Source: Escherichia phage CMSTMSU | Reading direction: 5' to 3' (one strand) | Sequence record: MH494197.1 | DNA length: 64,000 nucleotides | Shown here: positions 13,557 to 42,238 of the stretch, piece after piece | Layout: the number at the start of each line of letters is the position of its first letter | Numbering within the stretch: position 1 is the stretch's first letter | Made by a program: the position numbers and the translations under genes | Notes under the pieces: generated by a model | The model's input: only the letters and a program-made list of their open reading frames with translations | What the model was told of the DNA's origin: nothing | Databases searched by the model: none

Positions 13557-14015
13557 TCAATACTGCTTGCGGTACGTCATTTTGTTGTATGCAGTGGTTA
13601 GTTTTTCCATGTTATTGAGAAGACTTAGAAACAATGGAAGTACTTCTGCATTGTCACTGAAGTTACAATCATTGACAGTACTCAATTGGAATAACTCACC
13701 AGCATCAACATTGAGTGTGTTGTATTCTTTAACAATGTTTTCTTCAGTATTGAAGATGTAGAATACAGTCCCCATGTGGTGTAAGTATACACCAGTATCA
13801 TTCTGAATATGACATGGGGTGATTACAATTGCTGTGTTATCAATATTATTTACTATTGTCAAACGCAGACTATGTAACCCAAAGATTACAGTACAATCCT
13901 TTGTACTGTGTTGGATCTGGTCACTAGTAAAGGAAGACCCACTATGATTTTTAGATCCATTTAGTATTTCTTTGATAATTTTAAATGAATACTTCATAGA
14001 ATTAGTTAAAAGCAT
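13557..14015 (-). CDS. hypothetical protein, weak family A motif
   Basis: 152 aa; DAGELFQLSTVND. Confidence 0.45.
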   Translation of the reverse strand: MLLTNSMKYSFKIIKEILNGSKNHSGSSFTSDQIQHSTKDCTVIFGLHSLRLTIVNNIDNTAIVITPCHIQNDTGVYLHHMGTVFYIFNTEENIVKEYNTLNVDAGELFQLSTVNDCNFSDNAEVLPLFLSLLNNMEKLTTAYNKMTYRKQY

Positions 14016-14359
14016 GAACTTTACCTTTAAGTAAATTAATTAATGTTCGCATAGATTCAGTACTGACAGTACCAAAATCAACACCTAAGCACTCGTATTG
14101 AAAGAACTCAATAGAATCAATTGAGTCCAAAGGAATCTCAACAACCTGATTCCCTATACCAGACATAGTAACATTGCTTTTATTAATCGTCAAGAAGTTT
14201 TTGAATAAGTATTAAATTTTAGTGAAATCGCATCGGGTGCTTTGTAACAATGCAGTACTGGGAGCCATACACATATAGTACTTTACTTTCACTAAGATCC
14301 GTTTTAAAAAATGAATCCCATTGAAGTATTTCTCATTGGCTCCCATCGCCGCGATTAGT

Positions 14360-14686
14360 TCATCTGTTGTTGTTAACCTTGTTTCGTTCTTCGTTAAACT
14401 GTTGAAAAGCATAGAATACTACCTTAACCATTTGTAGTGTTTCAGACATTACTTCTGATGAAAATTCAACATCATTGAATTTCAGCATAGTGTTCTGTGT
14501 AAAGAAAGTTGCTTCTAAGTCTTCCAGATTGAAGGGTTCATCAAACAAATTAGTACTGAACATGTCAGTCTTCTTCTTGTATGTGAACAAGAATTTGGAA
14601 TTATAACGAAGAACTATTTCATCTTTATTAACCAAAATACGTGCAATGTTCTGACGTGTCAATGTGGTAATGTTTAAATTGAACAC
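14360..14686 (-). CDS. hypothetical protein, degenerate family A motif
   Basis: 108 aa; EDLEATFFTQNTML. Confidence 0.4.
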   Translation of the reverse strand: MFNLNITTLTRQNIARILVNKDEIVLRYNSKFLFTYKKKTDMFSTNLFDEPFNLEDLEATFFTQNTMLKFNDVEFSSEVMSETLQMVKVVFYAFQQFNEERNKVNNNR

Positions 14687-14911
14687 GTTCTTGCGTGTTT
14701 CAGTGATATCAACAAAATACCCATCTCCTGATGGATATTACATCGTACATCCAACCCTTTCTGTACTGTATTGAACAGTGCATCTTGAATAAAATAATTT
14801 GCTGTATCGATGTTTCCTAAAATGTCTAACATAACTTCTCCTTGATTGCTGTCATATTTAGAAGAAATTCTTCAAGCAATTCCTCTGTAACATACTCAAC
14901 ATACCAGAATA

Positions 14912-15343
14912 TCACAATATCTTTGAAAGTCGAGTATTCTTAAAAATATCTACTAACTCTTTGTAGTACTCAAGATCATATACATCTTTTATAATTAGTG
15001 AGTACTGAAATAGTGATTCTTCAGTTAACTTAAATTCTGGATATAGTAAGTCATTAAATTCTAATGATTCTGATTGTACTTTTATTTTAGTGAAGTCATT
15101 TGTTAATCCACCATTATATCCATATAATGCAGCGTAATTCACGAACTTGGCTTTTGGATTAAAATCAAGAACAGTTTCACCTTTATATGACAATCGGTGG
15201 AACGCCGTGAACTTTGTAATTTGCCACGGTTGCTTAATGCCTAAGTCATTTATGTCTTTATTATTGTACATAAGAACTGTGAATATTTCAGCAATCTTCA
15301 ATAATAATTTAGTACGTGCTAGTACTGTCATAGGTTCAATCAT
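14912..15343 (-). CDS. family A paralog
   Basis: core TEESLFQYSLII near C-terminus. Confidence 0.5.
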   Translation of the reverse strand: MIEPMTVLARTKLLLKIAEIFTVLMYNNKDINDLGIKQPWQITKFTAFHRLSYKGETVLDFNPKAKFVNYAALYGYNGGLTNDFTKIKVQSESLEFNDLLYPEFKLTEESLFQYSLIIKDVYDLEYYKELVDIFKNTRLSKIL

Positions 15344-15813
15344 TATACACCTTCATATTCATCAAGGAAATCTTCGATGATCATTTCTGCATCATCCATA
15401 TGCATAGCATCTACTTCAACAATGCGAACCTTAGATGCATCCCAAATCATATAGCTAGGAACTGTATCTGGTTCGTAATCGTTCTTGTACTGAACTGCAT
15501 CATAGCCGTTAATTTCGCAGTACTCAATCACTCCACGCCATTCGTCGTCACTGCCCATATCCGTCCACAGAAGCACGTTATCAACATCAACTTCTAAGGT
15601 ATGTAAGTATACTGTATCAGCGTCAACAACGTTCAGTGGGCTTCTCAGCTTGCGTAATGCAGCTTCTAAAGCACTGTGTTTACCTCCCATATGAAGGCCA
15701 CCATACGGGATATAAAAGTTATCAATTTTACAGTACTCGCATGATACAGTTTCATTATTCATTCCTATTTCAGTACTTTGACCGGGCTTTAACCGCTGTT
15801 TCAAGTTGTGCAA
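15343..15813 (-). CDS. hypothetical protein (156 aa)
   Basis: track ORF; acidic C-terminus; no motif recognised. Confidence 0.45.
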   Translation of the reverse strand: MHNLKQRLKPGQSTEIGMNNETVSCEYCKIDNFYIPYGGLHMGGKHSALEAALRKLRSPLNVVDADTVYLHTLEVDVDNVLLWTDMGSDDEWRGVIEYCEINGYDAVQYKNDYEPDTVPSYMIWDASKVRIVEVDAMHMDDAEMIIEDFLDEYEGV

Positions 15814-16219
15814 AGTCGTTGATTGTAAGATAATGAATACCCAATGTACTCATTTCTGAATCTATTTTACTATACAAATCGAACATGTCAAGTAGATATT
15901 GATATGTATATGACTCCGATGACACACATGATTCTTGAAATAGACGTTCTTCCATATCATTTACTACTTCATCATTTACGTCTCGAATCACACCATCTTT
16001 GTATGTGTAGTAAATCTCATCCCATTCATCTGATAAGCGGAATAGTAAAGGCTTACCATTAAACATCTCAAGGTCATATGCATTGACTTCACTCAATAAC
16101 ATATCATCAGGATCAGGTGTGAAATCGAATTGAGCGAGTGAAGAACCATCATAATCCTTAAGGAATACACCAATAGCATTCAATTTAACTTCGCCATAAT
16201 TGCCATTCTTGAACTTCAC
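15770..16219 (-). CDS. family A paralog
   Basis: core MEERLFQESCVS. Confidence 0.5.
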   Translation of the reverse strand: MKFKNGNYGEVKLNAIGVFLKDYDGSSLAQFDFTPDPDDMLLSEVNAYDLEMFNGKPLLFRLSDEWDEIYYTYKDGVIRDVNDEVVNDMEERLFQESCVSSESYTYQYLLDMFDLYSKIDSEMSTLGIHYLTINDFAQLETAVKARSKY

Positions 16220-16336
16220 ACGAATATTAATATCAATGCTTTGAACCGTATCATCATCTTGGAACTGATAATCAATTTTATACTTTTCCCAAAGTTTTTA
16301 ATATCTTTGAAGTACTTAATTTTACTTTCTATTTCT

Positions 16337-16564
16337 TTAAAGTTCATCTGGAACCACCATCTCTTGTATGTTCTTGCATTTTATCATTGCACAATTAGTA
16401 TGTAAAATGATAGAGTACTTATGTAATGATTTAATTTTATAACACTCATTAAGTACTGAAATGATGCCCCATAACTCTTCTACATCAATAGTGATAGGTT
16501 CACTAGTACTAAGTTGCATTAGTGCTGCTTCCACATCATCTTTGTTATTGATTTTGAACTGCAT
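16337..16564 (-). CDS. hypothetical protein
   Basis: track ORF 75 aa. Confidence 0.35.
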   Translation of the reverse strand: MQFKINNKDDVEAALMQLSTSEPITIDVEELWGIISVLNECYKIKSLHKYSIILHTNCAMIKCKNIQEMVVPDEL

Positions 16565-16572
16565 ACCACGTT

Positions 16573-16833
16573 TCAGTATTTTGGTTTTGGATTATACTCT
16601 GCCATTACATCACCTTCAGGGTAACCCTCGTGTAATAATAATGTAGTCTCATAATCTCCACAATTGAAATTAATTTCATCATAGTCAGGAACACAAATCA
16701 TTCCTTCACCATATTGATTATCTACTGATTCGATTGTTAAAATACGCTGATGTTCATTACTCAGGATAATAGAATCGTGCCAGTACTGCGTAGTGAATTT
16801 ACTACGTTTCTTTTGACAGCACATACTTGACAT
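16573..16833 (-). CDS. hypothetical protein
   Basis: track ORF 86 aa. Confidence 0.35.
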   Translation of the reverse strand: MSSMCCQKKRSKFTTQYWHDSIILSNEHQRILTIESVDNQYGEGMICVPDYDEINFNCGDYETTLLLHEGYPEGDVMAEYNPKPKY

Positions 16834-16930
16834 GGGACCATACTTTTATATAGGGACTTCTTGAATGCTATCGCACGAGCCACCTTAATAACTTCTCGAA
16901 TTAGGTCAATAGCTTCTTGATAACTTTTTC

Positions 16931-17137
16931 TCATTTGTCGTACCCATATAAAATATGATCTAGTGTGCATTGTACTTCTTCATGGAAGAACAATGGGTAA
17001 ATTTGTATTAATTTTTCTTTAAGTTCAAGTGAATGGCATAATTCTAATGCTTTGATACAATCTTCATATTGAACTAAGCTATGTATTGTACTTAACTGGA
17101 AATGTTGTTCTTCAGAGTAAGCTAAATCATATACCAA
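16931..17137 (-). CDS. family A paralog
   Basis: core SEEQHFQLSTIH. Confidence 0.45.
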   Translation of the reverse strand: MVYDLAYSEEQHFQLSTIHSLVQYEDCIKALELCHSLELKEKLIQIYPLFFHEEVQCTLDHILYGYDK

Positions 17138-17224
17138 ATTATCATCTAAAAGGTTTGATTTCTTTGAAGGATCAAGTACTGTGTTGCTATGACCTACCCA
17201 GAAAAAGCATTGGTGTTCATATTA

Positions 17225-17479
17225 TTACAACCCCAACCTGCCCCATTTTTGGTGAATAGCAAAGACACAACTATCATAGAGATTAATACCAAGACGCTCT
17301 TCGTTGACATAAATCGTAACACCATCGATTGTCATGGTTATTTGGAAACGCATTGAACCTTCACTTCGTGATCGTGCACAGAAGCCAAGATAACGGTTGA
17401 TAATTGTATTGATTTTATCTGCCCATCCTTCCACATCTTTGGATGCACATAATTTAAAAAGATCATGACTTTGATTCAT
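17225..17479 (-). CDS. hypothetical protein
   Basis: track ORF 84 aa. Confidence 0.35.
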   Translation of the reverse strand: MNQSHDLFKLCASKDVEGWADKINTIINRYLGFCARSRSEGSMRFQITMTIDGVTIYVNEERLGINLYDSCVFAIHQKWGRLGL

Positions 17480-18053
17480 GTAGTTCTCCGTTAATCAAGC
17501 ATAAGTGGCATCATCGCCCATATCTTTTCATAATCATATCTTCAGTAAAACAAACGTTTTAGGTGCAGTATATGATATTGACAACCCAAATGGAAGTACG
17601 ATTGCATCATCAATTATATTATGAATATCAAACCATGTTTTACACAATCATATGGTGGAAGTTCATGTATTGTACTTAACTGAAAGTATTGTTCTTCACC
17701 AAATGTACTGCAATCAATATCACAAATTTTAGTGAATTGATGATTCCATTTAGATATAATACTGTTTTATTATTGAACATATTAGTTCTATGCATGAAAC
17801 CATTTCTGCTAATATGATTTGATATTGCGTTTTCTTCAATATCATTGCTTATTTTAAAATTCATGTCAAAGTTGTAGTGCGAACTCGACGATTCTTTGAA
17901 TTTTAAATGAAAATAACGATTGTTATTAATTTCCATTTCAATACAAAACACATCTGAATCAAAACGATTAAACTTGTAATCGTTGTCTTCAGGTAGAGTT
18001 TGTAATTTTTCATAACACCAAGCATAGGGTGCACTAAGCTTCTAATAAAATCA

Positions 18054-18446
18054 TTAGTTATTTTCATAGTATTCCTTTAGAACTTTAAATGATTCAACAA
18101 TACTATCTTGTGTGTAATTAGAACTATATACAATTGCATTTGATTTGATTGACCACAGATATGACATAAAGGTTATAACACTACTACATGAACTTAATGT
18201 ATTGTTTTGGAATTCATTTTCTTCAATGTTATCAGTACTGGTATTGATGAATTGGATAGTATCTTGTTTCTGATTAGACATTGAAACTAAAGTACAATCA
18301 GTATAAGGAGTGTACAAAAACGTCTCATTACTAATTGAACTATCATTAGTATATGATGGTTTGGTAATATAAATCAAACGCATGATATCACGCTCAATAC
18401 CCGATTTACGACTTTCCACTAAAGAAATCATATCTATATTTTTCAT
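18054..18446 (-). CDS. hypothetical protein
   Basis: track ORF 130 aa. Confidence 0.4.
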   Translation of the reverse strand: MKNIDMISLVESRKSGIERDIMRLIYITKPSYTNDSSISNETFLYTPYTDCTLVSMSNQKQDTIQFINTSTDNIEENEFQNNTLSSCSSVITFMSYLWSIKSNAIVYSSNYTQDSIVESFKVLKEYYENN

Positions 18447-18555
18447 ATGATCAACATTGACATGGAACTTTTGTTTAGAATTACATCTTTTGGGGAATTT
18501 TTATATGAAGATAAGATCTCATACATCTCAACTAATTCTCGTGCATTTAATAAAC

Positions 18556-18981
18556 TCATGTTTTGTCTCTTAATGAAAGAATATCCTTAGTATAAACTGA
18601 TACAGAAATGTGATTATATTTCATCATTAATTTATACACATAAGAAGCTAGTACTAAATCGTAAATTAATTTAGTATCATACAGTACTCCGTATTGTAAA
18701 GCAAGTGAATCAATATCATCTTTACTTTCAATATCCAGAAATGTGCCGAAATATGTAGTACCGTGGAGATGAAAATTGGAATTAATGCAATCAATGCATT
18801 CATTGTCCAACAGAGTAGATGATGATGCCCTCGGTGAATCCCAAATAGTCACTGCGTGTATGCCCTCAACGAACAAATCTATCCATATTTTGTGTCGTTG
18901 TCTTTTTGTTTTATAATTTTCTGGATTTGAAAGTGTAGTTTCAATTATATCCCATATGTATAAGCATTCATCTCTTGTCAT
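18556..18981 (-). CDS. hypothetical protein
   Basis: track ORF 141 aa. Confidence 0.45.
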   Translation of the reverse strand: MTRDECLYIWDIIETTLSNPENYKTKRQRHKIWIDLFVEGIHAVTIWDSPRASSSTLLDNECIDCINSNFHLHGTTYFGTFLDIESKDDIDSLALQYGVLYDTKLIYDLVLASYVYKLMMKYNHISVSVYTKDILSLRDKT

Positions 18982-19099
18982 TATAGCACCTTATCCATTG
19001 CTGCATTTAATGCTTTTAAACGATCAACATTCAAAGTATTGAAGATGTACGTTCCTAAAATGTGGAAATCGAACTGGTTCTTTTTGTATGTGTGATAAA

Positions 19100-19555
19100 T
19101 TAAACTACAAAAACAACAGTACTAAGAACCTCTTCCGGTATAACGGTGCTCATCTGAAACAGTTCTTCATCAACTGTACTTGATTCTGGATTGATAGCTT
19201 TTAACTCATACTCTTTATCACCGAATAGTACTTTAATATTATATAAAACACCAACAGTACTAATATGAAATGGATGGTGTGAAAAACTTCCATCATCATT
19301 AATTTGGATATCGGATCTAATCTCGCACTCTTCATTACTTTTACTATTATTTTTACAATACAAATATTCCGCACCAGAAATAGTAAGAATACCGTGATCG
19401 TAATATTCTTTGGACAAACATTTAGATGAAAATGACACATCACGAATGAGGTAATGTTTGTTAATTTCTTTGGCACTACCAACAATGTGTAGCATCTTTG
19501 TGCTGATATCATATAGCTGTTGGTGTCGGGCTGTCATATAACTATAAGCGTTCAT
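19100..19555 (-). CDS. family A paralog
   Basis: core VDEELFQMSTVI. Confidence 0.45.
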   Translation of the reverse strand: MNAYSYMTARHQQLYDISTKMLHIVGSAKEINKHYLIRDVSFSSKCLSKEYYDHGILTISGAEYLYCKNNSKSNEECEIRSDIQINDDGSFSHHPFHISTVGVLYNIKVLFGDKEYELKAINPESSTVDEELFQMSTVIPEEVLSTVVFVV

Positions 19556-19919
19556 ATGTATCCTTGATGTTTTGATTGCCGTGTAGCTCTTTTAATGTAT
19601 CGGATTCACAGTTAATGAACTTACTATACATTACCAATTCACCAGTGTCAATAGCTTTTGCAGTTTCATAGCAAAGCATCATGTACTCAAACTCCTTGAA
19701 GTTGTCAAGTACTGATCTCTGGAAAATGTATGCTTCACGAATGTCTTCACTTTGATCTAGTTCTGGTGGAATTTCCAAATATGTATCATTCTCTACGTCA
19801 TCAAAATTAGATTCAACAATTCGATTAATATCTTCGTGTAAAGCATTGACAAATATCATGTTTGGAGTAATGGAACCGATTTGCTCACTATGCCTTGATG
19901 TGCGGATATACATTGCCAT
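19542..19919 (-). CDS. family A paralog
   Basis: core IREAYIFQRSVLD. Confidence 0.5.
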   Translation of the reverse strand: MAMYIRTSRHSEQIGSITPNMIFVNALHEDINRIVESNFDDVENDTYLEIPPELDQSEDIREAYIFQRSVLDNFKEFEYMMLCYETAKAIDTGELVMYSKFINCESDTLKELHGNQNIKDTYERL

Positions 19920-20122
19920 AGTATCCCATGAACCTTTTTCGTCGTTCCATAATCGTAAACTTTATAAGACTCCAGTACTACTGAACCAAAACGATATGGT
20001 GATTTGCATTCAACTTTAAGACGATAATTTCCAATAGGCTCATGTTCAGTAATGTTGTGCTTTTCAGATAGTTCTGCAATGTCATGCATCAATTTCATAA
20101 TTTGAATGTGTTCAGCTTGCAT
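19856..20122 (-). CDS. hypothetical protein
   Basis: track ORF 88 aa. Confidence 0.35.
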   Translation of the reverse strand: MQAEHIQIMKLMHDIAELSEKHNITEHEPIGNYRLKVECKSPYRFGSVVLESYKVYDYGTTKKVHGILWQCISAHQGIVSKSVPLLQT

Positions 20123-20270
20123 TATAAGTCCTCTAATTTAACAGGTACATGTTCATTGATGAACGTCTTAAGAGCCAGTACTAGATCTTCTAATTCTTCT
20201 GTACTGAATTTTAATATAGTTTTAAAGATTATCAATTCATTTCTTTCTATAATCTTTGGAATTTCATATG

Positions 20271-20684
20271 CTAACATAAGATTGCGAACAGTACCAGCGT
20301 TGTGTATGAGGTTCGCATTGAATAAAAGTACATCGTACTCGTCTTTTTAATTTTATAATTGTACTCTTCAATTACTTCATGTGTGTATGTATTCTTATAG
20401 GCAATTTTATTTTTATGAAATTTATAACCAACAGTAACACTATCATCATAAAATGTAGAACGATAATCTTGTTTTCTATCGCCGGACGAAATGATGTGTA
20501 ATGCTGTGTATTTGTCCTCAACATCTAACTCAATGTTTGCATAACTGTTAACGGTTTCATTCTTTAGGACGTTAATGTTATATTTCTCATTAACTTTAAT
20601 GTACTGGCGTGAACCATTATCATCAATGAACTTAAAACAATGCTTTACCAACAATGTGATTTCTTTAATTAATTCAGTACTCAT
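20271..20684 (-). CDS. hypothetical protein
   Basis: track ORF 137 aa; promoter-like TTTACA-17-TATAAT and AGGAG SD upstream. Confidence 0.45.
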   Translation of the reverse strand: MSTELIKEITLLVKHCFKFIDDNGSRQYIKVNEKYNINVLKNETVNSYANIELDVEDKYTALHIISSGDRKQDYRSTFYDDSVTVGYKFHKNKIAYKNTYTHEVIEEYNYKIKKTSTMYFYSMRTSYTTLVLFAILC

Positions 20685-20711
20685 ATCTTCTCCTGTACTC
20701 TGTTAAAAGCG

Positions 20712-20740
20712 ATTATAACACACCTGAATGCTCATGTAAA
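20712..20740 (-). promoter_or_regulatory. sigma70-like promoter
   Basis: TTTACA - 17 nt - TATAAT read on minus strand, about 28 nt upstream of the ATG at 20684. Confidence 0.4.
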
Positions 20741-20750
20741 GCACTAAACA

Positions 20751-25134: not shown

Positions 25135-25140
25135 AAAACC

Positions 25141-34151: not shown

Positions 34152-34194
34152 AATCCTATTTCCTTTAAATCTTCCAAAAATGTTTCATAATCAC

Positions 34195-35080: not shown

Positions 35081-35236
35081 CTCTGAATTTAAATAAATCT
35101 CTTCTGGAAACTGGGCTGTACTGTAATAATAAAATACATCAATTCTTTTTCATTATTTTGTACAAGAGGTAAATTTCTTTCGTCTCTCTTATTAATATTT
35201 GTTTTCCATGACTCAATGTTATTCGGAATCCAAAAC

Positions 35237-35482
35237 TCATAAGGTGTCTTCTCCTGAAATATTATCCAGCTTCAATCCATAATATTCACCTTCTCCGTAC
35301 TTTTGCTTCAAAACAATACCTGTACTACTAATGTTTACAATGTACGTATCAACAATCCCTTCTGTGCTAAAAGGAATATTTAACTCTGAACCTTCAGGGT
35401 ACTTAGCATTGAATGCATCTAATGCTTTACTTAGCACTGGGATTGCACTGGTACTGTACTTCATTAATTGGTCTATGATCAT
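35237..35482 (-). CDS. hypothetical protein
   Basis: track ORF 81 aa. Confidence 0.4.
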   Translation of the reverse strand: MIIDQLMKYSTSAIPVLSKALDAFNAKYPEGSELNIPFSTEGIVDTYIVNISSTGIVLKQKYGEGEYYGLKLDNISGEDTL

Positions 35483-35853
35483 TTTAATTCTGTAATCACT
35501 GCATTTACTGCACTTGATGCAAATAAACTGATATTTGAACGATACATATCGTACACTGTACTTTCTTTCTTGTGCACAATGAAATCATAAAGATCAACGA
35601 ATGCAGGAATAATAATCTTGAATGATTTATTTGGGTACGTCCCAAAATCAACTGTACTCAATTTTGCAACGAGCATAACAACAAAGATTTCTTCTGGACT
35701 ATGCAATGTACTGTACTGAAAATATTCCTCAGCACTCATGGCACTTATTGCATTTATATCTTGTGTTTGTAATGTAATATTAAGATATTCAAAAATAGAA
35801 TAAAACTCTGATTTTGTTTGTATTTTGTATTTGTCAATTGGGGTATCTCTCAT
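35479..35853 (-). CDS. family A paralog
   Basis: core SAEEYFQYSTLH. Confidence 0.45.
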   Translation of the reverse strand: MRDTPIDKYKIQTKSEFYSIFEYLNITLQTQDINAISAMSAEEYFQYSTLHSPEEIFVVMLVAKLSTVDFGTYPNKSFKIIIPAFVDLYDFIVHKKESTVYDMYRSNISLFASSAVNAVITELK

Positions 35854-36104
35854 GAACCATAAACGATCTTGTCCATAAAAGGAATGATTGAATTTGGGGA
35901 AGCCAGAAATACTTCTTCACTATCAATATCCTTTAACTCAATTTGCATACCGGATGAATTGGCAATAATTAATTCATTAAAAATATAATGAACCTTGTGT
36001 ACAATCTCTTGTACTGAATTGAAATCATCTGGTATTTTAAAATTTTCCATAGGTATCTCCTTAAAATGATTACACATTGTACCATGCATTTGTACTCGTG
36101 TCAA
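35850..36104 (-). CDS. hypothetical protein
   Basis: track ORF 84 aa; degenerate SEEVFLASPNS. Confidence 0.35.
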   Translation of the reverse strand: MTRVQMHGTMCNHFKEIPMENFKIPDDFNSVQEIVHKVHYIFNELIIANSSGMQIELKDIDSEEVFLASPNSIIPFMDKIVYGS

Positions 36105-36120
36105 ACAAAAAGCCCATATC

Positions 36121-36618
36121 TTACGATACAGGCATGTTTATTTGAATTTCATTGTACAAATCATCAATATATAGACATGAAAACGATAAACTTTCTTTAA
36201 CTATATTGTTGTGATAAAGCATTTTAAATGCAATATAGAAAAATAAATCAATATCATCATGTACTAAATTCTGCTGGAACCACCACTCTTCTGTTAAATC
36301 TTGTGCATTAAAATCATCAGGAACTACAATTGACGACATATCAGCATCTTCTTTGTACTCAAACCACATGTCGTCATTTGGATAACGTTCATGCTTCTCT
36401 GGGTAACAATTGCTGGGATTAAATGCTAAAATATAAAATGCCGTCGCAGAATGTTCTTTATTATAAAATGAATTATTCCACACCTGATACCTTTCACCAA
36501 CATCAAACTCTTTTGATACTGATGTTATTGCACATAATGTACGATATATTGTTTCTATTTTGTGAACAAATTTAAAGGCTGCATCTAAACTGAACTCTAA
36601 ATCAGACATGCGGTGCAT
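36121..36618 (-). CDS. family A paralog
   Basis: core TEEWWFQQNLVHD. Confidence 0.45.
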   Translation of the reverse strand: MHRMSDLEFSLDAAFKFVHKIETIYRTLCAITSVSKEFDVGERYQVWNNSFYNKEHSATAFYILAFNPSNCYPEKHERYPNDDMWFEYKEDADMSSIVVPDDFNAQDLTEEWWFQQNLVHDDIDLFFYIAFKMLYHNNIVKESLSFSCLYIDDLYNEIQINMPVS

Positions 36619-36938
36619 AAAATTACCTCAACTAAAATAAGAACGGTATTGAATTCGAGGCAACCTTTGATACCTTGATTGTACATGTACTTTGCTACTA
36701 CATATTTCTGTACTAAATTATAATTATTAAATTCCTCAAAATTGTAATTTAGAATGAAATTTGTACTCAAAAATAACTTATGCATCTCTAATGCACTCTG
36801 ATAATATTTGTACAACTCACTGATATCAATACTTTGTAAATCACTTTGTTCATATGTATGATAAGGAATGGCGTCAATATCAATATTATTAAACCATTCT
36901 CTTAACTTATTAATATCAAATGTATTATTCAGCTTCAT
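36597..36938 (-). CDS. hypothetical protein
   Basis: track ORF 113 aa. Confidence 0.4.
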   Translation of the reverse strand: MKLNNTFDINKLREWFNNIDIDAIPYHTYEQSDLQSIDISELYKYYQSALEMHKLFLSTNFILNYNFEEFNNYNLVQKYVVAKYMYNQGIKGCLEFNTVLILVEVILCTACLI

Positions 36939-37042
36939 AACTCAATACCTCCATTAAGCACTCATAAACACCATCAATCGCATAAGCACAAAACTGAAAT
37001 TAATTTTGTTATTCTTGTGTAATGGACTATCGTGTACTGTAC

Positions 37043-37500
37043 TCAACATAACACTATAAAACAAAGAACGTTCATGTGTAAATAATGATTCCTGAAAAAT
37101 GCTTCCTCTGATTTAATTTTATTATATTCAATCGATTGATCATTAGAATAAAATGAATCTTGATTTGAATTGTACCATGTGTAATCCAAATCATTCTTTG
37201 ATATAACTGGTGTTGGATTAAACTGTAAAAGACTAATAACACTACGGGCATTTGGGGTATCAGGTGTATTGAATCGTTTATCAAAATGACTCGTGCACGC
37301 AATATGTGAATCAAAATCAGATGGTTTAAACCCCATGAATGCGTTAATGATTCTTGTATATGGTTTTTATTATGTGCTGCTTTCTGTACATTATATAAGG
37401 CTGCAACAATACAAGCTAACTTTTGTCCCATAAGGATTGCATTAGCGTAGGTGTACTGAATTTCATTGTACTCATTGCTTTCATTGTACTTCGAGATCAT
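37043..37500 (-). CDS. hypothetical protein, frame-shifted; degenerate family A motif
   Basis: two overlapping minus-strand ORFs 37043..37336 and 37072..37500; SEEAFF... Confidence 0.3.
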
Positions 37501-37690
37501 GGAACAGCCTCACTTTGCCTAACTCGTCATTGGATATTAATTCGTTAACAGCTTTTTGTATATTCTTTAATAATAGCACATCAAATCCTTTTGTGTCAAG
37601 CACACATTGCATTTGGAAGAATTCTTCTTCTGATAATGTATTAAAATCCACAAAATTGTCTAATATTACGTCATTATCCAAATGTGCCAT
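37481..37690 (-). CDS. family A paralog
   Basis: core SEEEFFQMQCVLD; near-identical to 37818..38129. Confidence 0.45.
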   Translation of the reverse strand: MAHLDNDVILDNFVDFNTLSEEEFFQMQCVLDTKGFDVLLLKNIQKAVNELISNDELGKVRLFHDLEVQ

Positions 37691-37817
37691 GTGCCATGTA
37701 TTTCTTTCGAGCGTTTAATAAAATTCCATCCATCTGGATAATCGGGTTCTAATTCTACATATATCCCCGATACTGTATAAAGCATTTTATATATCATAAC
37801 TATTGTACTCATTGTTT

Positions 37818-38129
37818 TCACTGTACGTCGATGTCATAATACGCTCCTACCTCATAATCTTTCTTGCTTTGGAATTCATTAACGACTTTCTGTATATTTC
37901 TTAATGTTACCATGTCATGTCCGTACATGTCAACCACCAATTGCATTTGGAAAAATTCTTCTTCAGATAATGTATTAAAATCTATAAAATAATCCGTAAC
38001 AACCTGTGCGTCTAAATTTGCCATGTACCATTGATTGGTATCGACCTCTTTAACCAAATTCCATGCATCTGGATCGGATTCTAATTCTACATATATTAAT
38101 GTTAATGTATAAAGCATTTTATACTTCAT
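37818..38129 (-). CDS. family A paralog
   Basis: core SEEEFFQMQLVVD. Confidence 0.45.
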   Translation of the reverse strand: MKYKMLYTLTLIYVELESDPDAWNLVKEVDTNQWYMANLDAQVVTDYFIDFNTLSEEEFFQMQLVVDMYGHDMVTLRNIQKVVNEFQSKKDYEVGAYYDIDVQ

Positions 38130-38463
38130 AACTATATCCTTGCATTAATAAATCATAAACGTTTGAAAGGTGCGGAATTTTGATATAAAATTTAAAACCC
38201 TTAATTAAAGGATTCGCGTACAATGAACTGAATAACTTTAGATAATGTATTTGACGAGGACTGTATAATAACGATTTCTGAAATAATTCAGCACTACAAT
38301 CTGAACTAATATCAATTAAATCAATTCGTGCTTCTACTTCATCATCTTGTTTCAAAACATAAAAGAAATAATCGTTTGTGTTGACCCACAAATACCCTTC
38401 ACTATTTTCGTATATAACAGGAGATGCTTGTTCTGGATTGCCTTGGCAAATGCTGCAAAACAA
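38119..38463 (-). CDS. family A paralog
   Basis: core SAELFQKSLLYS; C-terminus LLMQGYSYEV shared with 38700..39014. Confidence 0.45.
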   Translation of the reverse strand: MFCSICQGNPEQASPVIYENSEGYLWVNTNDYFFYVLKQDDEVEARIDLIDISSDCSAELFQKSLLYSPRQIHYLKLFSSLYANPLIKGFKFYIKIPHLSNVYDLLMQGYSYEV

Positions 38464-38699
38464 ACTTTTGCATTACTTTCATCTTTAAACATAAACGATA
38501 ATTTATCATATCTATCTTCTATGCGTAAATCACCTATAAAATGTACTTATGCATAGAATGATTATTCTTGAGCATAAGCATTACTGTACTAATCTTGTGT
38601 GCTAATAATTCTATCTCATTCATATATTATTACCTATTGATTGATACATCGTCATTGTCTTCTAATTCAACATAAATCATATCTTTTGTATAAAGCATT

Positions 38700-39014
38700 T
38701 TATACTTCATAACTATATCCTTGCATTAAAAGATCATAAGCAATATCAACTAATTCTAAACGAATGAAAAATTTTAAATTATCTTTCAATGGATTCAAAT
38801 GCATTGTACTAAACAACATAAGATACTTCATTTGATTTGTATTGTATATTAGGGATGTCTGGAATACTTCTGCTTCATTGTAAGGATCAATGAATTTTAT
38901 ACCTTCTTCACTGTAATCCGTTTTGGAATTCTGATATATAAAATAATCATCACCAGCATTGTACCACAAATAACCTTCAAAACTGGAATCAAATTCTGAA
39001 TTTTCATTTCGCAT
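38700..39014 (-). CDS. family A paralog
   Basis: core AEVFQTSLIYN. Confidence 0.45.
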   Translation of the reverse strand: MRNENSEFDSSFEGYLWYNAGDDYFIYQNSKTDYSEEGIKFIDPYNEAEVFQTSLIYNTNQMKYLMLFSTMHLNPLKDNLKFFIRLELVDIAYDLLMQGYSYEV

Positions 39015-39259
39015 TAAAGGTGATACTGAAATTGGATTTGAACCAACTGTTGCACAAACCTCAATGAAAGCATCTTCATTTCCTTAACTTCTTCTTTGAT
39101 TTTATCATTGTACTGACCTGCAAAACCAGCTTTCACTTCCAAATATAAACTACTCCCAACTTTATTAATTCTTAAAAGGGAACTCTGTACTGTATTCGCA
39201 TTGTTCAGCACTAACGATATTGTGCAAATCTTATGTACCAATAACTCAATATCATTCAT
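39014..39259 (-). CDS. hypothetical protein
   Basis: track ORF 81 aa. Confidence 0.35.
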   Translation of the reverse strand: MNDIELLVHKICTISLVLNNANTVQSSLLRINKVGSSLYLEVKAGFAGQYNDKIKEEVKEMKMLSLRFVQQLVQIQFQYHL

Positions 39260-39964
39260 ATTGGTATTCCTTAATTTGGTGGATTTGGATGTAATAACTG
39301 ATCTATATAATTTAAATGTTCTATTGTAACTAATGAAAGATAATAATTGTAATTATCTATACCACCCTTTAAATGTATATTGTAATACATCTTGATACTT
39401 ACTAATAAAGAATCATTTAAATCATTTATTGCTTTTGTATTAACGGTTTTCATTAATGTTCTTCTCTTAAAAACGCTTAATGGCACAATCTAAATAAAAA
39501 TCATAATACATCATATCTCTATTCTTAACCCATACACAATAATCTGCATTAATATTTCTTAATAATATATTCATATTATAATCTTCACACCCTAATCGTG
39601 CCATTTAATAGGATACTCCGTTCCATTTATTGTATAAGATATAATCCATCCGTAATGAATAGGATGATTTTTGTCTGAATCAGGAATAAAATATAAAGAT
39701 GTACTGGGTTATAACTGAATAAATCGTTGTTACCAATTGTAAAATGTGATAACTCAATCTTCCTTGTACCTGTACTTGGACGAAGAACATTCTTAACACC
39801 GAAGACTGTACCTTGATATTTCTCGGAAAATTCAAACAATGCATCTGCAATTAAATCACGAAACTCCGCATGTATGGTTTCAAAAAATCTATATTACACG
39901 ATGTTTTAATATCCTTGAACTCCTTATATAAAGAGCTTCTTGTATTCAAAAGAAATATTACTTT

Positions 39965-40165
39965 TTAAGATCCTGAACTATTTCTGGATTCATATTCATT
40001 TATCTCATTCTGTAACTTAAGCATCAAAATTTGCATATTAATTTTTTGTACAAGGTGATTGAGAAATTTCTGTACTGTATCTTCTTGTTCTTTTGACCCA
40101 AGATAAAATAACATATTAAATTCCGATAACCTCAGAGCAAAATCTTCCTCTCCCCTCGTAAACAA
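39965..40165 (-). CDS. family B paralog
   Basis: core YLGSKEQEDTVQKFL. Confidence 0.4.
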   Translation of the reverse strand: MFTRGEEDFALRLSEFNMLFYLGSKEQEDTVQKFLNHLVQKINMQILMLKLQNEINEYESRNSSGS

Positions 40166-40199
40166 AAATCCCTGTACTTTGAAGCGTACAAATATTGGT

Positions 40200-40412
40200 T
40201 TACCTTTTTATACCTTTGGGTCTGCATTGTATCTCCTTTTTCAAACACCTTATTAGATTATCAACGTATTGGTCCTGTACTATTGTCCCTAGATAAAATA
40301 ATACATCGAACTCTGATAATTTTATATTGAAAGGATCTACATATACATCTTTAATAAACTCTTTGTACTTCAAAATATATGCATTAGGTAAATTCTTATA
40401 TATCGATTTCAA
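40200..40412 (-). CDS. family B paralog
   Basis: core YLGTIVQDQYVDNLI. Confidence 0.4.
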   Translation of the reverse strand: MKSIYKNLPNAYILKYKEFIKDVYVDPFNIKLSEFDVLFYLGTIVQDQYVDNLIRCLKKEIQCRPKGIKR

Positions 40413-40626
40413 TGATCCTCCCTGACATACCTTGTATTAGCTTATCATACATATCTAGCATTACTTTTTGAATACTAATTAATACTGGCATCGTGCAAAT
40501 ATCAATGTCGTATATTAAGCTGTACTGGAATAATTCCTCTTCCTGCATTTGTACTAAATTAGGTAAAAGATAATTGTCTGCCTCTTCATCCGGTACTTGA
40601 ATGCATAACGCCATCCTTTTGTACAA
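40396..40626 (-). CDS. family A paralog
   Basis: core EEELFQYSLIYD. Confidence 0.45.
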   Translation of the reverse strand: MYKRMALCIQVPDEEADNYLLPNLVQMQEEELFQYSLIYDIDICTMPVLISIQKVMLDMYDKLIQGMSGRIIEIDI

Positions 40627-40712
40627 AAGAATGTCAATATCACCTAACTCTTCTGCATAACCAAAAATACATATACTGATGTTTTTGCTATATTAAATTT
40701 CATATTCTTCTC

Positions 40713-41063
40713 TTATATGTGGAATTCACATACGTGTTGAACAAAATTCTTTGGAAGATGACAATGTGTAATCATCTGCTTTTGTACTTCCTTCATATCT
40801 TCGAATGTAAATCCTAAAGAATCATCATGTACTAACAAGTACTGAAACTCTTCTTCTTCAGAGATAGAACATAAATTCGGTACTGAAATTGTGTTTGTTT
40901 TTCTTGCACCTAATTTCCAATGAAAAGAATTATTGCATTTTCTGTACTCAAATATCTTCAACCCAGAACCTGTATTAAAATCAGCTACTACAATGTAACA
41001 TGAATTCTTACGTACAATACAATTGAACTTACGCATTATCTCCACCTCTCTCCGTCTGTACAA
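40713..41063 (-). CDS. family A paralog
   Basis: core SEEEEFQYLLVHD. Confidence 0.45.
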   Translation of the reverse strand: MYRRREVEIMRKFNCIVRKNSCYIVVADFNTGSGLKIFEYRKCNNSFHWKLGARKTNTISVPNLCSISEEEEFQYLLVHDDSLGFTFEDMKEVQKQMITHCHLPKNFVQHVCEFHI

Positions 41064-41340
41064 GAGTACTGGTACGTTGTAGTTAGGGTAGGGACCATGT
41101 TTGTAATGGGCATATTATTAACAATAACGGTAACAGGCATAAGAATCGTCTCTTCTCTACTCTGTCCTGTCCTTGTGCAATTCATCTTTTGCATTTCATC
41201 GGACTCCATGAAATACAATACAAATGGTGCAATCCCAAGAACAATACACAAGACGATAAGGAAATTTAAAAATTCAACATAATTTTCTACCCTATGATTA
41301 ACGTACAGGTACTATATCAGTAATGAAAAGTACTGTCAAG

Positions 41341-41715
41341 CTAGTATTGCACTGTTCTAATGAAAGTACCTTTACTCATGGATTTAAGCTTATGAACCTC
41401 TTCCTGCATACCCTTAATTAACCCTAAAGGTATAGGTAAATCATGTACTAAGCTGTACTGAAAGTATTCTTCTTCAGATAAAGTACTAACATCTGGAATG
41501 CCAATTTTAGTTAGATAATCTTGATGTGTTGACCAATAAATTATATCTTCAGTACTATTGTACTCCCCATATACTGAACAATATTGATGAATATCTTTCC
41601 TGTACCCTTGAGCAATAAAGAACTTATCTACTGCATTACCAGCATTAATAGAATTCACTTCGATTGTCACAGTACTTGAGCTTGTTTTTCCTTTACTATG
41701 CATATTAATCCCCAA
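41341..41715 (-). CDS. family A paralog
   Basis: core SEEEYFQYSLVHD. Confidence 0.45.
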   Translation of the reverse strand: MGINMHSKGKTSSSTVTIEVNSINAGNAVDKFFIAQGYRKDIHQYCSVYGEYNSTEDIIYWSTHQDYLTKIGIPDVSTLSEEEYFQYSLVHDLPIPLGLIKGMQEEVHKLKSMSKGTFIRTVQY

Positions 41716-41887
41716 ATTAGATATCGAACACTATCAGCTTGATAGTTAGTTCCTACTGTGTGTTTTAATATTAACTCATCTTTCAGTACTGAACATTCTG
41801 CATTAGATATAGGAAGAGAATTAATTCTTTGAATTTCTGGTCGCAAAATACCGCGAAGCTTGCGGTAATCTTCGTATGATAATATTT

Positions 41888-42238
41888 TCATTGTTTAGTA
41901 CTCAATAATGTGTTCTTCATAATCACCATTAGGCTCTGTTTAGCTTCTTTCATTAGTACTATCATTTTATGTACTAATGGCATAGGAAATTCTAAATCCC
42001 ATACTAATGATTCTTGAAAGTATTCCTCTGGTGATAAAGTACTTAAATCTTTAATATCAACGTGCTTGTATATTTTATTTTCGTAATTAACAAATGATAT
42101 ATATAAATCATTAATATAAGAATCATACGTAATTGTGAATGGCTTACCCTTGTAGTCCATTACATCTCTACATAGACTACTTTTGATATATATATGTTCA
42201 TAGGATTTATATACCTTGAGTTGTATATTAGTTTTCAT
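41888..42238 (-). CDS. family A paralog
   Basis: core SPEEYFQESLVWD. Confidence 0.45.
   Translation of the reverse strand: MKTNIQLKVYKSYEHIYIKSSLCRDVMDYKGKPFTITYDSYINDLYISFVNYENKIYKHVDIKDLSTLSPEEYFQESLVWDLEFPMPLVHKMIVLMKEAKQSLMVIMKNTLLSTKQ

What the first reader, a model, noticed from the sequence alone, without database searches (positions are those of the whole stretch)
13557..42238. Large tandem array of diverged paralogs sharing an EE-x-[YFLI]-F-Q-x-S-[LT]-[VIL] core (family A)
More than 40 consecutive minus-strand genes (densest from 22.4 to 42.2 kb, outliers back to about 1.8 kb) carry the same 10-12 residue core, e.g. SEEYYFQNSTLY, EDELFQESLVWD, SEEEFFQMQLVVD, TEEWWFQQNLVHD. The core is followed by about 30 residues of conserved hydrophobic periodicity (e.g. 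...DTLVIMWYFKSI, ...LCTLEEVIAIQNEMKEY), while the N-terminal halves are unrelated and vary in length. Synonymous codon differences across copies (Ser as TCA/AGT/AGC; TTTCAG versus TTTCAA) argue for protein-level selection. I do not recognise the family. A paralog expansion of this size with a constant C-terminal module and hypervariable N-termini is the most unusual thing in the window.
Basis: seen in the sequence. Interest (0 to 1): 0.85.

Follow-up and report, generated by a model that had tools for sequence, protein, structure and literature searches.

The report
Jumbo-phage multigene family with FQ helix
A giant E. coli virus devotes about 29 kb to some 45-50 diverged copies of one small, previously undescribed protein that keeps an invariant Phe-Gln helix; the family is real and probably made early in infection, but its function is unknown and much of the apparent variability in this window comes from sequencing errors.

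Summary
The motif array is real. A profile finds 46 module segments (about 43 genes), all on the minus strand at 13.5-42.3 kb, and none elsewhere. Synonymous codon mixing and dN/dS of about 0.25 show selection on the protein, not a DNA repeat.

The window comes from a 121Q/PBECO4-type (Asteriusvirus) jumbo coliphage. Its assembly is error-rich: 319 indels against fEgEco12, mostly 1-bp homopolymer deletions. About two-thirds of the copies are therefore frame-broken, and the "variable-length N-termini" are largely an artefact. In intact relatives the proteins are 110-220 aa.

AlphaFold models (pTM about 0.8) and a profile-profile alignment show one α/β domain: a β-sheet, the FQ helix, a long helix and a strand. 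The motif is a core helix, not a separate module or a protease site.

No Pfam, NCBIfam, PADLOC or PDB relative exists. Only 78 cluster representatives match among 1.84 billion proteins. Klebsiella phage RaK2 has 27 copies at the syntenic position.

The proteins are acidic, soluble and absent from virion proteomes. The array lies just inside the terminal repeat and carries coding-strand σ70 promoters. The best reading is an early, non-structural family of binding proteins for host takeover or counter-defence. That function is inferred, not shown.

The parts
13519..42238 (-). The whole family array: about 43 module-bearing genes, a few sub-threshold members and interspersed 'LGTxxQ' genes. It is transcribed from high to low window coordinates.
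   Evidence: collinear with fEgEco12 L002 6.4-35.5 kb at 98% identity
13519..14015 (-). family gene, motif DAGELFQLSTVN; split over 2 frames in the window; intact 166 aa in fEgEco12
14829..15343 (-). family gene, TEESLFQYSLII; 2 frames in the window; 172 aa in fEgEco12
15776..16297 (-). family gene, MEERLFQESCVS; truncated in the window (90% of 194 aa)
16934..17479 (-). family gene, SEEQHFQLSTIH; 183 aa in fEgEco12
17546..18067 (-). family gene, GEEQYFQLSTIH; frame-broken (2 frames, 69% covered)
18057..18559 (-). family gene, IEENEFQNNTLS; 2 frames in the window; 168 aa in fEgEco12
18984..19555 (-). family gene, VDEELFQMSTVI; module itself split over two frames
20840..20986 (-). C-terminal fragment of a family gene, TDEVQFQLSTIC
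21282..21833 (-). family gene (weak, E 5e-4), LESVMFQHMLIH; 3 frames in the window; 185 aa in fEgEco12
22365..22853 (-). family gene, SEESYFQNSLIY (ORF 22419-22853, 144 aa); phrog_34017
22844..23250 (-). family gene, DPDELFQYSLVL; 2 frames in the window; 137 aa in fEgEco12
23237..23595 (-). family gene, SEEELFQESTVN; frameshift just upstream of the motif; 120 aa in fEgEco12
23588..24070 (-). intact long-class member (160 aa), TEEMYFQGSCIH; AlphaFold model m66cfb1558156 with the motif as helix 110-116
24070..24537 (-). family gene, SEEEFFQYSTLY; 159 aa in fEgEco12
24602..25134 (-). family gene, NEENYFQQSLLN; split into ORFs 24602-24856 and 24808-25134; 183 aa in fEgEco12
25141..25479 (-). intact short-class member (112 aa), DRGELFQESLVL
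25469..25798 (-). family gene, QEDELFQESLVW (ORF 93 aa; 119 aa in fEgEco12); phrog_13866
26429..26977 (-). family gene, TEENIFQNSLMW; 3 frames in the window; 184 aa in fEgEco12
27204..27719 (-). family gene, FEEQCFQLSCTD
27862..28298 (-). family gene whose FQ is destroyed in the window by a frameshift (…STEEGYFEVLF…); the fEgEco12 orthologue reads STEEGYFQGSTVY
28374..28735 (-). family gene, SEDAYFQYSTIY; 2 frames in the window
28735..29133 (-). family gene, HESFIFQESLVW (ORF 124 aa)
29045..29487 (-). family gene, SEEYYFQNSTLY; best module score (E 9e-17); 2 frames in the window
29398..29949 (-). family gene, SEEYYFQNSTVY; in the window it is fused by an indel to the start of the next gene (ORF 29230-29745)
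29906..30103 (-). C-terminal part of a family gene, TEEYYFQQSLIF; N-terminal part lost to frameshifts (146 aa in fEgEco12)
30386..30851 (-). family gene, SEEFYFQQNTIY; 3 frames in the window; 156 aa in fEgEco12
31033..31448 (-). family gene, GEAEIFQESLIF; broken just after the motif, and the tail continues in another frame at 31033-31146
31378..31743 (-). intact short-class member (121 aa), DNAELFQASLVF
31743..32099 (-). intact short-class member (118 aa), DAAELFQAALVF; AlphaFold model m7f0a0ffcc4c3 with the motif as helix 66-76; phrog_15629
32101..32470 (-). family gene, DDAALFQESLVF; 3 frames in the window; 125 aa in fEgEco12
33244..33868 (-). family gene, SEEMLFQYKTVH; 3 frames in the window; 208 aa in fEgEco12
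34151..34787 (-). family gene, DEAAYFQQSLID; 3 frames in the window
35479..35916 (-). family gene, SAEEYFQYSTLH (ORF 124 aa; 182 aa in fEgEco12)
36121..36618 (-). intact long-class member (165 aa), TEEWWFQQNLVH; phrog_34516
36928..37500 (-). family gene (weak, E 4e-4), GSIFQESLFT; 3 frames in the window; 189 aa in fEgEco12
37475..37714 (-). family gene, SEEEFFQMQCVL; truncated in the window
37818..38129 (-). intact short-class member (103 aa), SEEEFFQMQLVV; phrog_33987
38119..38623 (-). family gene, CSAELFQKSLLY; 3 frames in the window; 168 aa in fEgEco12
38700..39259 (-). family gene, NEAEVFQTSLIY; 2 frames in the window; 186 aa in fEgEco12; phrog_19795
40396..40692 (-). short-class member, QEEELFQYSLIY
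40713..41063 (-). short-class member (116 aa ORF), SEEEEFQYLLVH
41341..41715 (-). short-class member (124 aa ORF), SEEEYFQYSLVH
41888..42238 (-). short-class member (116 aa ORF), SPEEYFQESLVW; this is the member at the upstream (5') end of the array
19542..19919 (-). probable diverged member below the profile threshold (REAYIFQRSVL)
   Evidence: fEgEco12 orthologue L002 12540-13124
34877..35080 (-). probable diverged member below the profile threshold (ESFFFQLSLVQD); C-terminal part of a 202-aa gene in fEgEco12
14360..14686 (-). probable diverged member with an insertion in the motif (LEATFFTQNTML)
24576..24605 (-). perfect σ70-type promoter (TTGACA-18-TATAAT with a TG extension) in the gap upstream of gene 24070-24537
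36076..36104 (-). near-consensus σ70 promoter (11/12) in an intergenic gap, directly after terminator-like hairpin 36112-36133
36112..36133 (-). terminator-like hairpin plus T-run immediately downstream of gene 36121-36618
41311..41339 (-). near-consensus σ70 promoter (11/12) in the gap below gene 41341-41715
31487..31514 (-). near-consensus σ70 promoter (11/12) about 35 nt upstream of the start of gene 31033-31448
34711..34739 (-). near-consensus σ70 promoter (11/12)
37570..37599 (-). near-consensus σ70 promoter (11/12), inside a gene
20712..20740 (-). near-consensus σ70 promoter (11/12)
19623..19651 (-). near-consensus σ70 promoter (11/12)
15864..15891 (-). near-consensus σ70 promoter (11/12)

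Best explanation
Shown: this is a lineage-specific multigene family of RaK2/121Q-type jumbo phages. One ancestral gene for a small (110-220 aa), acidic, soluble α/β protein was amplified by local tandem duplication to about 45-50 copies, and the copies then diverged.

Predicted with good confidence: each protein is a single domain made of an antiparallel β-sheet, a short helix, a long helix and a final strand. The [ST]-E-E-x-[YLF]-F-Q-x-S-[TL]-[VIL] motif is the short central helix. Its conserved residues fall on one broad face, as expected for a buried folding core, while the sheet and the exposed positions have diverged almost beyond recognition.

Inferred: the genes are transcribed early by the unmodified host σ70 RNA polymerase. 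The array lies just inside the left terminal repeat and points inward, and the products stay in the cytoplasm and are not packaged. The proteins lack any conserved catalytic-type residues, and each paralogue is kept under purifying selection. I therefore think they act as a repertoire of binding or inhibitor proteins on one scaffold. Each would engage a different host factor or defence component during takeover of the cell. This resembles the terminal multigene families of large eukaryotic DNA viruses. The identity of the family is secure; the function is a hypothesis.
For: The family is real and protein-coding: with dN/dS of 0.22-0.27.

Copy numbers are 40-44 intact members per roughly 50-kb locus in 121Q and fEgEco12, 27 in RaK2, and 21 and 25 per 20 kb in two metagenomic arrays. 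All are on one strand.

Nearest paralogues lie closer in the array than random expectation in three genomes.

The single-domain fold with the motif as a helix rests on two AlphaFold models: pLDDT 79 and 84, pTM 0.79 and 0.81, and block-mean pLDDT of 81-94 over the motif-containing blocks. hhalign between the long and short classes gives probability 94.5% and extends about 50 residues upstream of the motif.

Early expression is supported by near-consensus σ70 promoters: 40 on the coding strand against 4 on the other across six arrays, where shuffles give 0.9-2.4 per array. The array sits at 27-56 kb of fEgEco12, whose ends and 21-kb terminal repeat were determined experimentally. In the related phage PA5oct the early genes map to the terminal-repeat region.

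The proteins are non-structural. The array is phAPEC6 gp404c-466c, and none of these is among the 62 virion proteins. RaK2 virion proteins map to other clusters.

The proteins are acidic and soluble: median pI 4.84, net charge -8, and 2 of 83 with a TM-like stretch.

No enzyme or other known family matches.
Against: No transcriptome or infected-cell proteome exists for these phages in the searchable literature, so early expression is inferred only from promoters and position.

Gene-wide dN/dS (0.25) is barely above that of neighbouring non-family genes (0.20), so there is no arms-race signal.

An invariant Gln is unusual for a purely structural core helix and could mark a functional contact.

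I could not inspect model coordinates, so burial of F and Q is inferred from periodicity and not measured.

No partner, toxicity or host-range datum exists. The models rest on shallow alignments of 25-27 rows made mostly of paralogues.
Confidence: 0.5

Rival explanations
1. Common docking or oligomerisation module. The conserved C-terminal half (FQ helix, long helix, strand) is a shared interface that brings all paralogues to one hub, such as host RNA polymerase, the nucleoid, the replisome or each other. The variable N-terminal part would carry the specific activity.
For: The C-terminal roughly 50 residues are the only part recognisable across all paralogues and across genera. F and Q are invariant in 136 of 138 members, and the E-E pair is kept in about 75%. 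That is more than a folding core usually requires.
Against: AlphaFold packs the helices against the N-terminal sheet as one domain with pTM about 0.8, not as two domains. Conserved positions cover the face expected to be buried, and the variable positions (-2, +2) lie on the opposite face. Homology extends upstream of the motif.
Confidence: 0.2
2. Immunity-type array. The paralogues are antidotes against a diverse set of toxins or nucleases (host abortive-infection effectors or competitors' toxins), like the tandem immunity-gene arrays of polymorphic toxin systems.
For: The family consists of tandem, same-strand arrays of small, diverged, non-enzymatic α/β proteins with variable copy number between relatives. 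This organisation is typical of immunity arrays; that comparison rests on my own knowledge of SUKH/Imm families and was not tested here.
Confidence: 0.12
3. Protease-processing tag. E-E-x-Y-F-Q resembles TEV/3C protease sites (ENLYFQ|S, LEVLFQ|GP), so the proteins would be cut after Gln by a phage or host Gln-specific protease, releasing the N-terminal part.
For: The string resemblance includes Q in 100% of members, E at P6 in 75% and Y at P3 in 31%. One copy (23588-24070, TEEMYFQGS) fits the formal TEV consensus.
Against: P1' is Y, L, E, N or Q, not the required G, S or A. The motif is a confident helix inside the fold, whereas such proteases need an extended, accessible segment. Conserved residues continue for five positions after Q with helical periodicity. 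No such protease is annotated in the loci or mentioned in the genome papers read.
Confidence: 0.03
4. Artefact of a repeated DNA element read in a fixed frame, or non-functional decaying duplicates.
For: Many window copies are frame-broken.
Against: Synonymous codons are mixed at every conserved position, including both Ser codon families. Orthologues are intact in 121Q, fEgEco12, phAPEC6 and RaK2. dN/dS is about 0.25. The breaks in the window are homopolymer deletions spread over the whole aligned 49 kb, not only over the array.
Confidence: 0.01

Closest known systems
PHROGs unknown-function families (phrog_12674, 9317, 34017, 13866, 15629, 34516, 33987, 19795, 22855)
   Same: These are the same proteins. 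Window members hit them with E-values down to 1e-107, and there are cross-hits between phrogs.
   Different: PHROGs splits the family into at least nine groups. It assigns no function and does not recognise the shared FQ helix or the single-family relationship.
Zn-ribbon lineage-specific expansion of Bacillus phage G (about 35 copies; Iyer et al. 2021, PMC7824862)
   Same: It is a very large expansion of one small protein within a single jumbo-phage genome, and that review calls it 'unprecedented'.
   Different: It has a different fold (Zn ribbon, predicted DNA-binding) and no homology. The present family has more copies (40-44 clear members per genome) and is shared by at least two genera at a syntenic position.
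Terminal multigene families of large eukaryotic DNA viruses (ASFV MGF360/505; poxvirus Bcl-2-like and ankyrin host-range families). This comparison is from my own knowledge.
   Same: Both are near-terminal tandem paralogue arrays in which the fold is kept while sequence diverges beyond BLAST. Copy number varies between strains, and the products are non-structural.
   Different: There is no homology. Their role in immune evasion and host range is shown experimentally, whereas nothing has been tested here.
T4-type internal proteins (hypervariable IP locus with a conserved capsid-targeting sequence). This comparison is from my own knowledge.
   Same: Both are sets of diverse small phage proteins that share one short conserved motif.
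   Different: The T4 motif is N-terminal, is cleaved by the prohead protease, and the proteins are packaged. Here the motif is an internal helix, and the proteins are absent from virion proteomes.
TEV NIa / picornavirus 3C protease recognition sites
   Same: They share the sequence string E-x-x-Y-F-Q.
   Different: P1' is not G, S or A. The motif is helical and lies inside a folded domain. No cognate protease was found.

Membership tests
Any described protein family (Pfam-A, NCBIfam, PADLOC, PDB sequences) | Significant profile match at or above the curated threshold | tested here: not met
   Pfam gave 0 families above cut-off for 10 window proteins and 27 A2 members. NCBIfam and PADLOC each gave a single stray sub-threshold hit. 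The PDB profile search gave a best E of 0.26.
PHROGs unknown-function families | HMM match to the phrog profile | tested here: met
   E-values of 1e-32 to 1e-107 to nine phrogs, all labelled 'unknown function'.
TEV/3C-type protease substrates | Gln at P1 with E at P6 and Y at P3 | tested here: inconclusive
   Q is present in 100%, E(-4) in 75% and Y(-1) in only 31%, with L also at 31%.
TEV/3C-type protease substrates | Small residue (G, S or A) at P1' | tested here: not met
   Position +2 is Y 28%, L 16%, E 14%, N 10% and Q 9%.
TEV/3C-type protease substrates | Site lies in an extended, accessible segment | tested here: not met
   The motif is helix 110-116 in one model and helix 66-76 in the other, with block-mean pLDDT of 81-94 over the motif-containing blocks.
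TEV/3C-type protease substrates | A cognate chymotrypsin-like Gln-specific protease is encoded by the phage or host | not tested
   I examined only loci of about 50 kb. None is annotated there or mentioned in the genome papers I read.
T4-type capsid-targeted internal proteins | Protein present in the virion | tested here: not met
   phAPEC6 gp404c-466c are absent from the 62-protein virion list. RaK2 virion proteins map to two other clusters.
T4-type capsid-targeted internal proteins | Conserved targeting motif at the extreme N-terminus | tested here: not met
   The motif lies at residues 60-190, in the C-terminal third.
Polymorphic-toxin immunity arrays (SUKH/Imm type) | Fold or sequence similarity to known immunity families | tested here: not met
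Polymorphic-toxin immunity arrays (SUKH/Imm type) | Linked toxin gene | not tested
   All neighbours are annotated as hypothetical. I did not scan them for toxin domains.
Tandem lineage-specific expansion | Many paralogues, same strand, contiguous, with nearest paralogues close together | tested here: met
   40-44 members per locus, all on one strand. Mean rank distance to the best paralogue is 9.3, 7.0 and 5.0, against 14.3, 15.0 and 8.4 at random.
Early (host-RNA-polymerase-transcribed) phage genes | σ70-type promoters on the coding strand | tested here: met
   Sites with at least 11/12 matches: 40 on the coding strand against 4 on the other in six arrays, where shuffles give 0.9-2.4 per array.
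Early (host-RNA-polymerase-transcribed) phage genes | Transcripts appear in the first minutes of infection | not testable with these tools
   No transcriptome of an Asteriusvirus or Alcyoneusvirus was found.

The most novel reading that the evidence does not exclude
The array is a germline-encoded repertoire of about 50 binders built on one new fold, with a conserved FQ-helix core and a diversified β-sheet surface. Each member would neutralise a different host factor or defence protein in the first minutes of infection. On this reading the array, which is the largest paralogue expansion I found described for a phage, would help determine which Enterobacteriaceae strains these jumbo phages can take over. 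It would be a prokaryotic-virus counterpart of the terminal multigene families of ASFV and poxviruses.
Probability: 0.3. Interest if true: 0.75.

Novelty: new variant of a known kind. Interest (0 to 1): 0.55.

Why it matters
These phages spend about 8% of a 350-kb genome on one undescribed protein family. The family has been conserved at the same position since before the E. coli and Klebsiella phage genera split. Such phages are being developed for therapy against E. coli and Klebsiella, yet more than 80% of their genes have no known role.

Recognising that nine or more 'orphan' PHROGs are a single family with a predicted new fold turns about 50 unknowns per genome into one tractable question. 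It also gives clear handles for experiment: the invariant F and Q, intact 103-165 aa members suited to structural work, and deletable blocks of the array.

If the proteins are takeover or counter-defence binders, the array would be a rich source of new inhibitors of bacterial proteins. A practical point also follows: the window's source genome needs polishing before any gene-level use.

Tried and rejected
1. DNA-repeat artefact. Rejected on the codon table and dN/dS.

2. Protease-site reading (TEV/3C). Rejected on P1' composition and the helical, folded context.

3. Virion or ejected 'internal protein' reading. Rejected on two published virion proteomes.

4. Real pseudogenisation of the window's copies. 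Rejected in favour of assembly error, because 87% of indels are deletions, most are 1 bp in homopolymers, they are spread over the whole aligned 49 kb, and the orthologues are intact in four genomes.

6. The word-indexed protein search with the short module profile found only 5 hits. The exhaustive search was needed to find 78.

7. Literature searches: the jumbo-phage review and the CBB, Sharanji, RaK2, phAPEC6, fEgEco12 and PA5oct papers do not describe the family. RaK2's authors note only that about 10% of its proteins are paralogues.

8. Gene-wide positive selection on the N-terminal parts was not seen.

9. An overall σ70 promoter count was not enriched (121 found against 126 expected). Only the near-consensus class shows the strand bias.

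10. The N-terminal-only recruitment test of FQ invariance gave just six new sequences, so it is only weak independent support.

Full report
**1. Source and observation**

Megablast places the window in the 121Q/PBECO4 group of jumbo coliphages (genus Asteriusvirus). It is 96.8-97.5% identical to phages WPEC5 and fEgEco12 and 82.6% identical to 121Q. Every gene under the match is annotated as hypothetical.

The motif array is real. E.{1,2}FQ occurs 47 times in the three minus-strand frames and 11 times in the plus-strand frames. An HMM built from 35 regex seeds and iterated on all stop-to-stop segments converges on 41-42 segments. All are on the minus strand between 13.5 and 42.3 kb, and no plus-strand segment scores better than E=0.35. 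A broader profile built from 81 intact relatives finds 46 segments with E<0.01, again all inside the array. After merging modules that are split by frameshifts, this gives about 43 genes.

**2. Protein-level or DNA-level conservation**

At the conserved positions the codons are mixed: F is TTT 24 / TTC 17, Q is CAG 23 / CAA 18, and Ser is AGY 18 / TCN 14. In 33 reciprocal-best orthologue pairs between 121Q and fEgEco12, pooled dN/dS is 0.27 for the part upstream of the module and 0.22 for the module. In a second run the family as a whole has dN/dS of 0.25, against 0.20 for 63 non-family neighbours. Median orthologue identity is 74% for the family and 84% for the neighbours.

The 'repeated DNA element' reading is therefore refuted, and the genes are maintained by purifying selection. 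There is also no gene-wide sign of hypervariation between orthologues.

**3. The window is an error-rich assembly**

Against fEgEco12 the window shows 319 indels at 96-98% identity. Of these, 279 are deletions in the window, 225 are of a single base, and most lie in homopolymer runs of four or more. They are spread over the whole aligned 49 kb.

In 121Q, fEgEco12, phAPEC6 and RaK2 the corresponding genes are intact, tightly packed ORFs. Of the 39 fEgEco12 members I could match in the window, 12 lie in one frame and 27 are split or truncated. Several breaks fall just upstream of the motif, which makes the motif appear at the 'N-terminus' of short ORFs. I studied the true architecture in the relatives.

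**4. Architecture**

In intact genomes the proteins are 110-220 aa. The module always lies at the C-terminal end, with 0-38 residues after it. The upstream part falls into two length classes, about 52-66 aa and about 90-130 aa.

By BLAST the upstream parts cluster almost only as orthologue pairs. jackhmmer merges one group of about 9-10 paralogues per genome and one of 3-4, and the rest stay separate.

AlphaFold2 models were built for one long member (window 23588-24070; pLDDT 79, pTM 0.79) and one short member (window 31743-32099; pLDDT 84, pTM 0.81). Both give the same layout: an antiparallel β-meander of 5-6 strands, a short helix that is the motif itself (residues 110-116 and 66-76), a long helix and a terminal strand. 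The long class adds an N-terminal and a C-terminal helix.

hhalign between the two class alignments gives probability 94.5% and E=7e-8 over 67 columns, reaching about 50 residues upstream of the motif. The protein is therefore one domain, and the 'constant module' is its best-conserved core.

Across 138 members from five loci the motif is [TS]-E(0.75)-E(0.72)-x-[YLF]-F(1.0)-Q(1.0)-x-S(0.81)-[TL]-[VIL]-[YHF]-[DNS]. The two exceptions read FMQ and FMV. The invariance of FQ is partly circular, because the profile was seeded on it, and an N-terminal-only recruitment test added only six sequences. Conserved positions (-4, -3, -1, 0, +1, +3 to +7) cover one broad face of a helix, and the variable positions (-2, +2) lie on the opposite face. 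That pattern fits a buried central helix. This is inference, because I could not obtain model coordinates.

**5. Relation to known families**

Pfam, NCBIfam and PADLOC give nothing. PHROGs scatters the proteins over at least nine unknown-function families. A profile search of all PDB sequences finds nothing.

An exhaustive HMMER scan of 1.84 billion cluster representatives finds only 78 proteins. All are 55-202 aa with the module at the C-terminal end. About 50 of them are less than 60% identical to anything in the 121Q-type loci. Those I traced sit in the same kind of dense one-strand arrays: L004 has 21 members in 20 kb (GC 28.5%) and L006 has 25 members in 20 kb (GC 35.9%). L006 has no match among isolated phages.

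RaK2 (genus Alcyoneusvirus) has 27 members at the syntenic position. There the array is followed by Dam methyltransferase, cytidylyltransferase, RnlA and PseT, as in 121Q and its relatives.

The literature I could search does not describe the family. The RaK2 paper notes only that about 10% of its proteins are paralogues. The 2021 jumbo-phage review calls a 35-copy Zn-ribbon expansion in phage G 'unprecedented'.

**6. Origin**

Within 121Q, fEgEco12 and RaK2, each member's best paralogue lies closer in the array than random expectation. Mean rank distances are 9.3, 7.0 and 5.0, against 14.3, 15.0 and 8.4, and each is below the minimum of 200 random means. This indicates growth by local tandem duplication followed by deep divergence.

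In the intact fEgEco12 array there are 44 clear members plus 20 other ORFs. Several of the others are evidently diverged members (REAYIFQRSVL, ESFFFQLSLVQD, EAALMQLSTS, LEATFFTQNTML), and four or five belong to a second family with an LGTxxQ motif.

**7. What it probably does**

Shown: the array corresponds to phAPEC6 gp404c-466c, and none of these is among the 62 virion proteins identified by mass spectrometry. RaK2's virion proteins map to two other clusters. The proteins are acidic (median pI 4.84, net charge -8) and soluble.

Shown: near-consensus σ70 promoters (at least 11 of 12 matches) number 9, 6, 9, 6, 5 and 5 on the coding strand of the six arrays, against 1, 2, 0, 1, 0 and 0 on the other strand. 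Shuffles give 0.9-2.4. Several lie in the few intergenic gaps. They include a perfect extended -10 consensus at 24576-24605 and a terminator-promoter pair at 36076-36133.

Shown by others: fEgEco12 has experimentally mapped ends with 20,993-bp direct terminal repeats. From the locus coordinates the array lies at 27-56 kb from the left end and is transcribed inward. In the related phage PA5oct, early transcription concentrates in the terminal-repeat region.

Inferred: the family is expressed early by the host RNA polymerase and acts in the cytoplasm. It has no conserved catalytic-type residues and no enzyme-like fold, each paralogue is kept under purifying selection, and its surface regions are very diverse. 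The most economical mechanism is a repertoire of binding or inhibitor proteins on one scaffold, used for host takeover or counter-defence. I put this at about 0.5.

The main rival, at about 0.2, is that the conserved half is a shared docking or oligomerisation interface. An immunity-array reading (about 0.12) overlaps with the best explanation. The TEV/3C-site resemblance (about 0.03) fails on P1' composition and on the helical, folded context. The DNA-artefact reading is refuted.

The absence of an arms-race signal in dN/dS, and the lack of any expression or interaction data, are the main weaknesses.

**8. Verdict**

It has a predicted fold with no solved counterpart, and its copy number exceeds the largest phage expansion noted in the review I read.

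The interpretation needs correcting. It is one diverged domain and not a module plus unrelated N-termini. Much of the irregularity in this window is sequencing error. The kind of thing it is, a lineage-specific expansion of small early proteins in a giant phage, is known. Interest is moderate to good (0.55). It would rise if partners or host-range effects were found.

Noticed in passing
window 7088-56267 (the whole region alignable to fEgEco12): The window sequence is an error-rich assembly. It has 319 indels against a 96-98% identical relative. Of these, 279 are deletions in the window, and most are 1 bp in homopolymer runs of four or more, so ORFs are broken throughout and not only in the array.
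   Followed up: yes
window 26967-27267, 39965-40412 and 42228-47900, minus strand: There is a second paralogue family of about 70-aa proteins with the motif [LF][YL]-L-G-T-x-x-Q-[EQ]-x-x-V-x-x-Y-[IL]. The regex hits 10 times on the minus strand and 0 times on the plus strand. In 121Q and fEgEco12 roughly 35 consecutive genes of about 70 aa lie between the terminal repeat and the FQ family.
   Followed up: partly
window 23588-24070 (-): This copy reads TEEMYFQGS, which formally matches the TEV protease recognition consensus E-x-x-Y-x-Q-(G/S). AlphaFold predicts it to be helical and inside the fold.
   Followed up: partly
window 36076-36133 (-) and 24576-24605 (-): A terminator-like hairpin is followed directly by a near-consensus σ70 promoter in one intergenic gap. 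Elsewhere a perfect TTGACA-18-TATAAT promoter with a TG extension lies in another gap. These suggest that the array is cut into several transcription units.
   Followed up: partly
window 415-1566, 6808-7341 and 7402-7707 (-); L001, L002, L003, L007: The order array, Dam methyltransferase, cytidylyltransferase, RnlA (then PseT in RaK2) is conserved between the E. coli Asteriusvirus phages and Klebsiella phage RaK2. I inferred the gene identities in the window from collinearity and did not scan them.
   Followed up: partly
L006 (Logan ERR11010856 contig, 20.5 kb): This locus holds an array of 25 family members at GC 35.9%. The member I queried has no tblastn match in 50,697 isolated phage records, so an uncultured lineage probably carries the same family.
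   Followed up: partly
protein P0016 (homologue of window 31743-32099): An NCBI protein labelled Actinomadura adrarensis, on a 563-bp contig, is 92% identical to this coliphage protein. It is most likely contamination of that assembly.
   Followed up: no
window about 47000-48000: G+C content rises from about 0.31-0.33 across the arrays to 0.39-0.41 beyond 48 kb, which marks a change of genome module.
   Followed up: no
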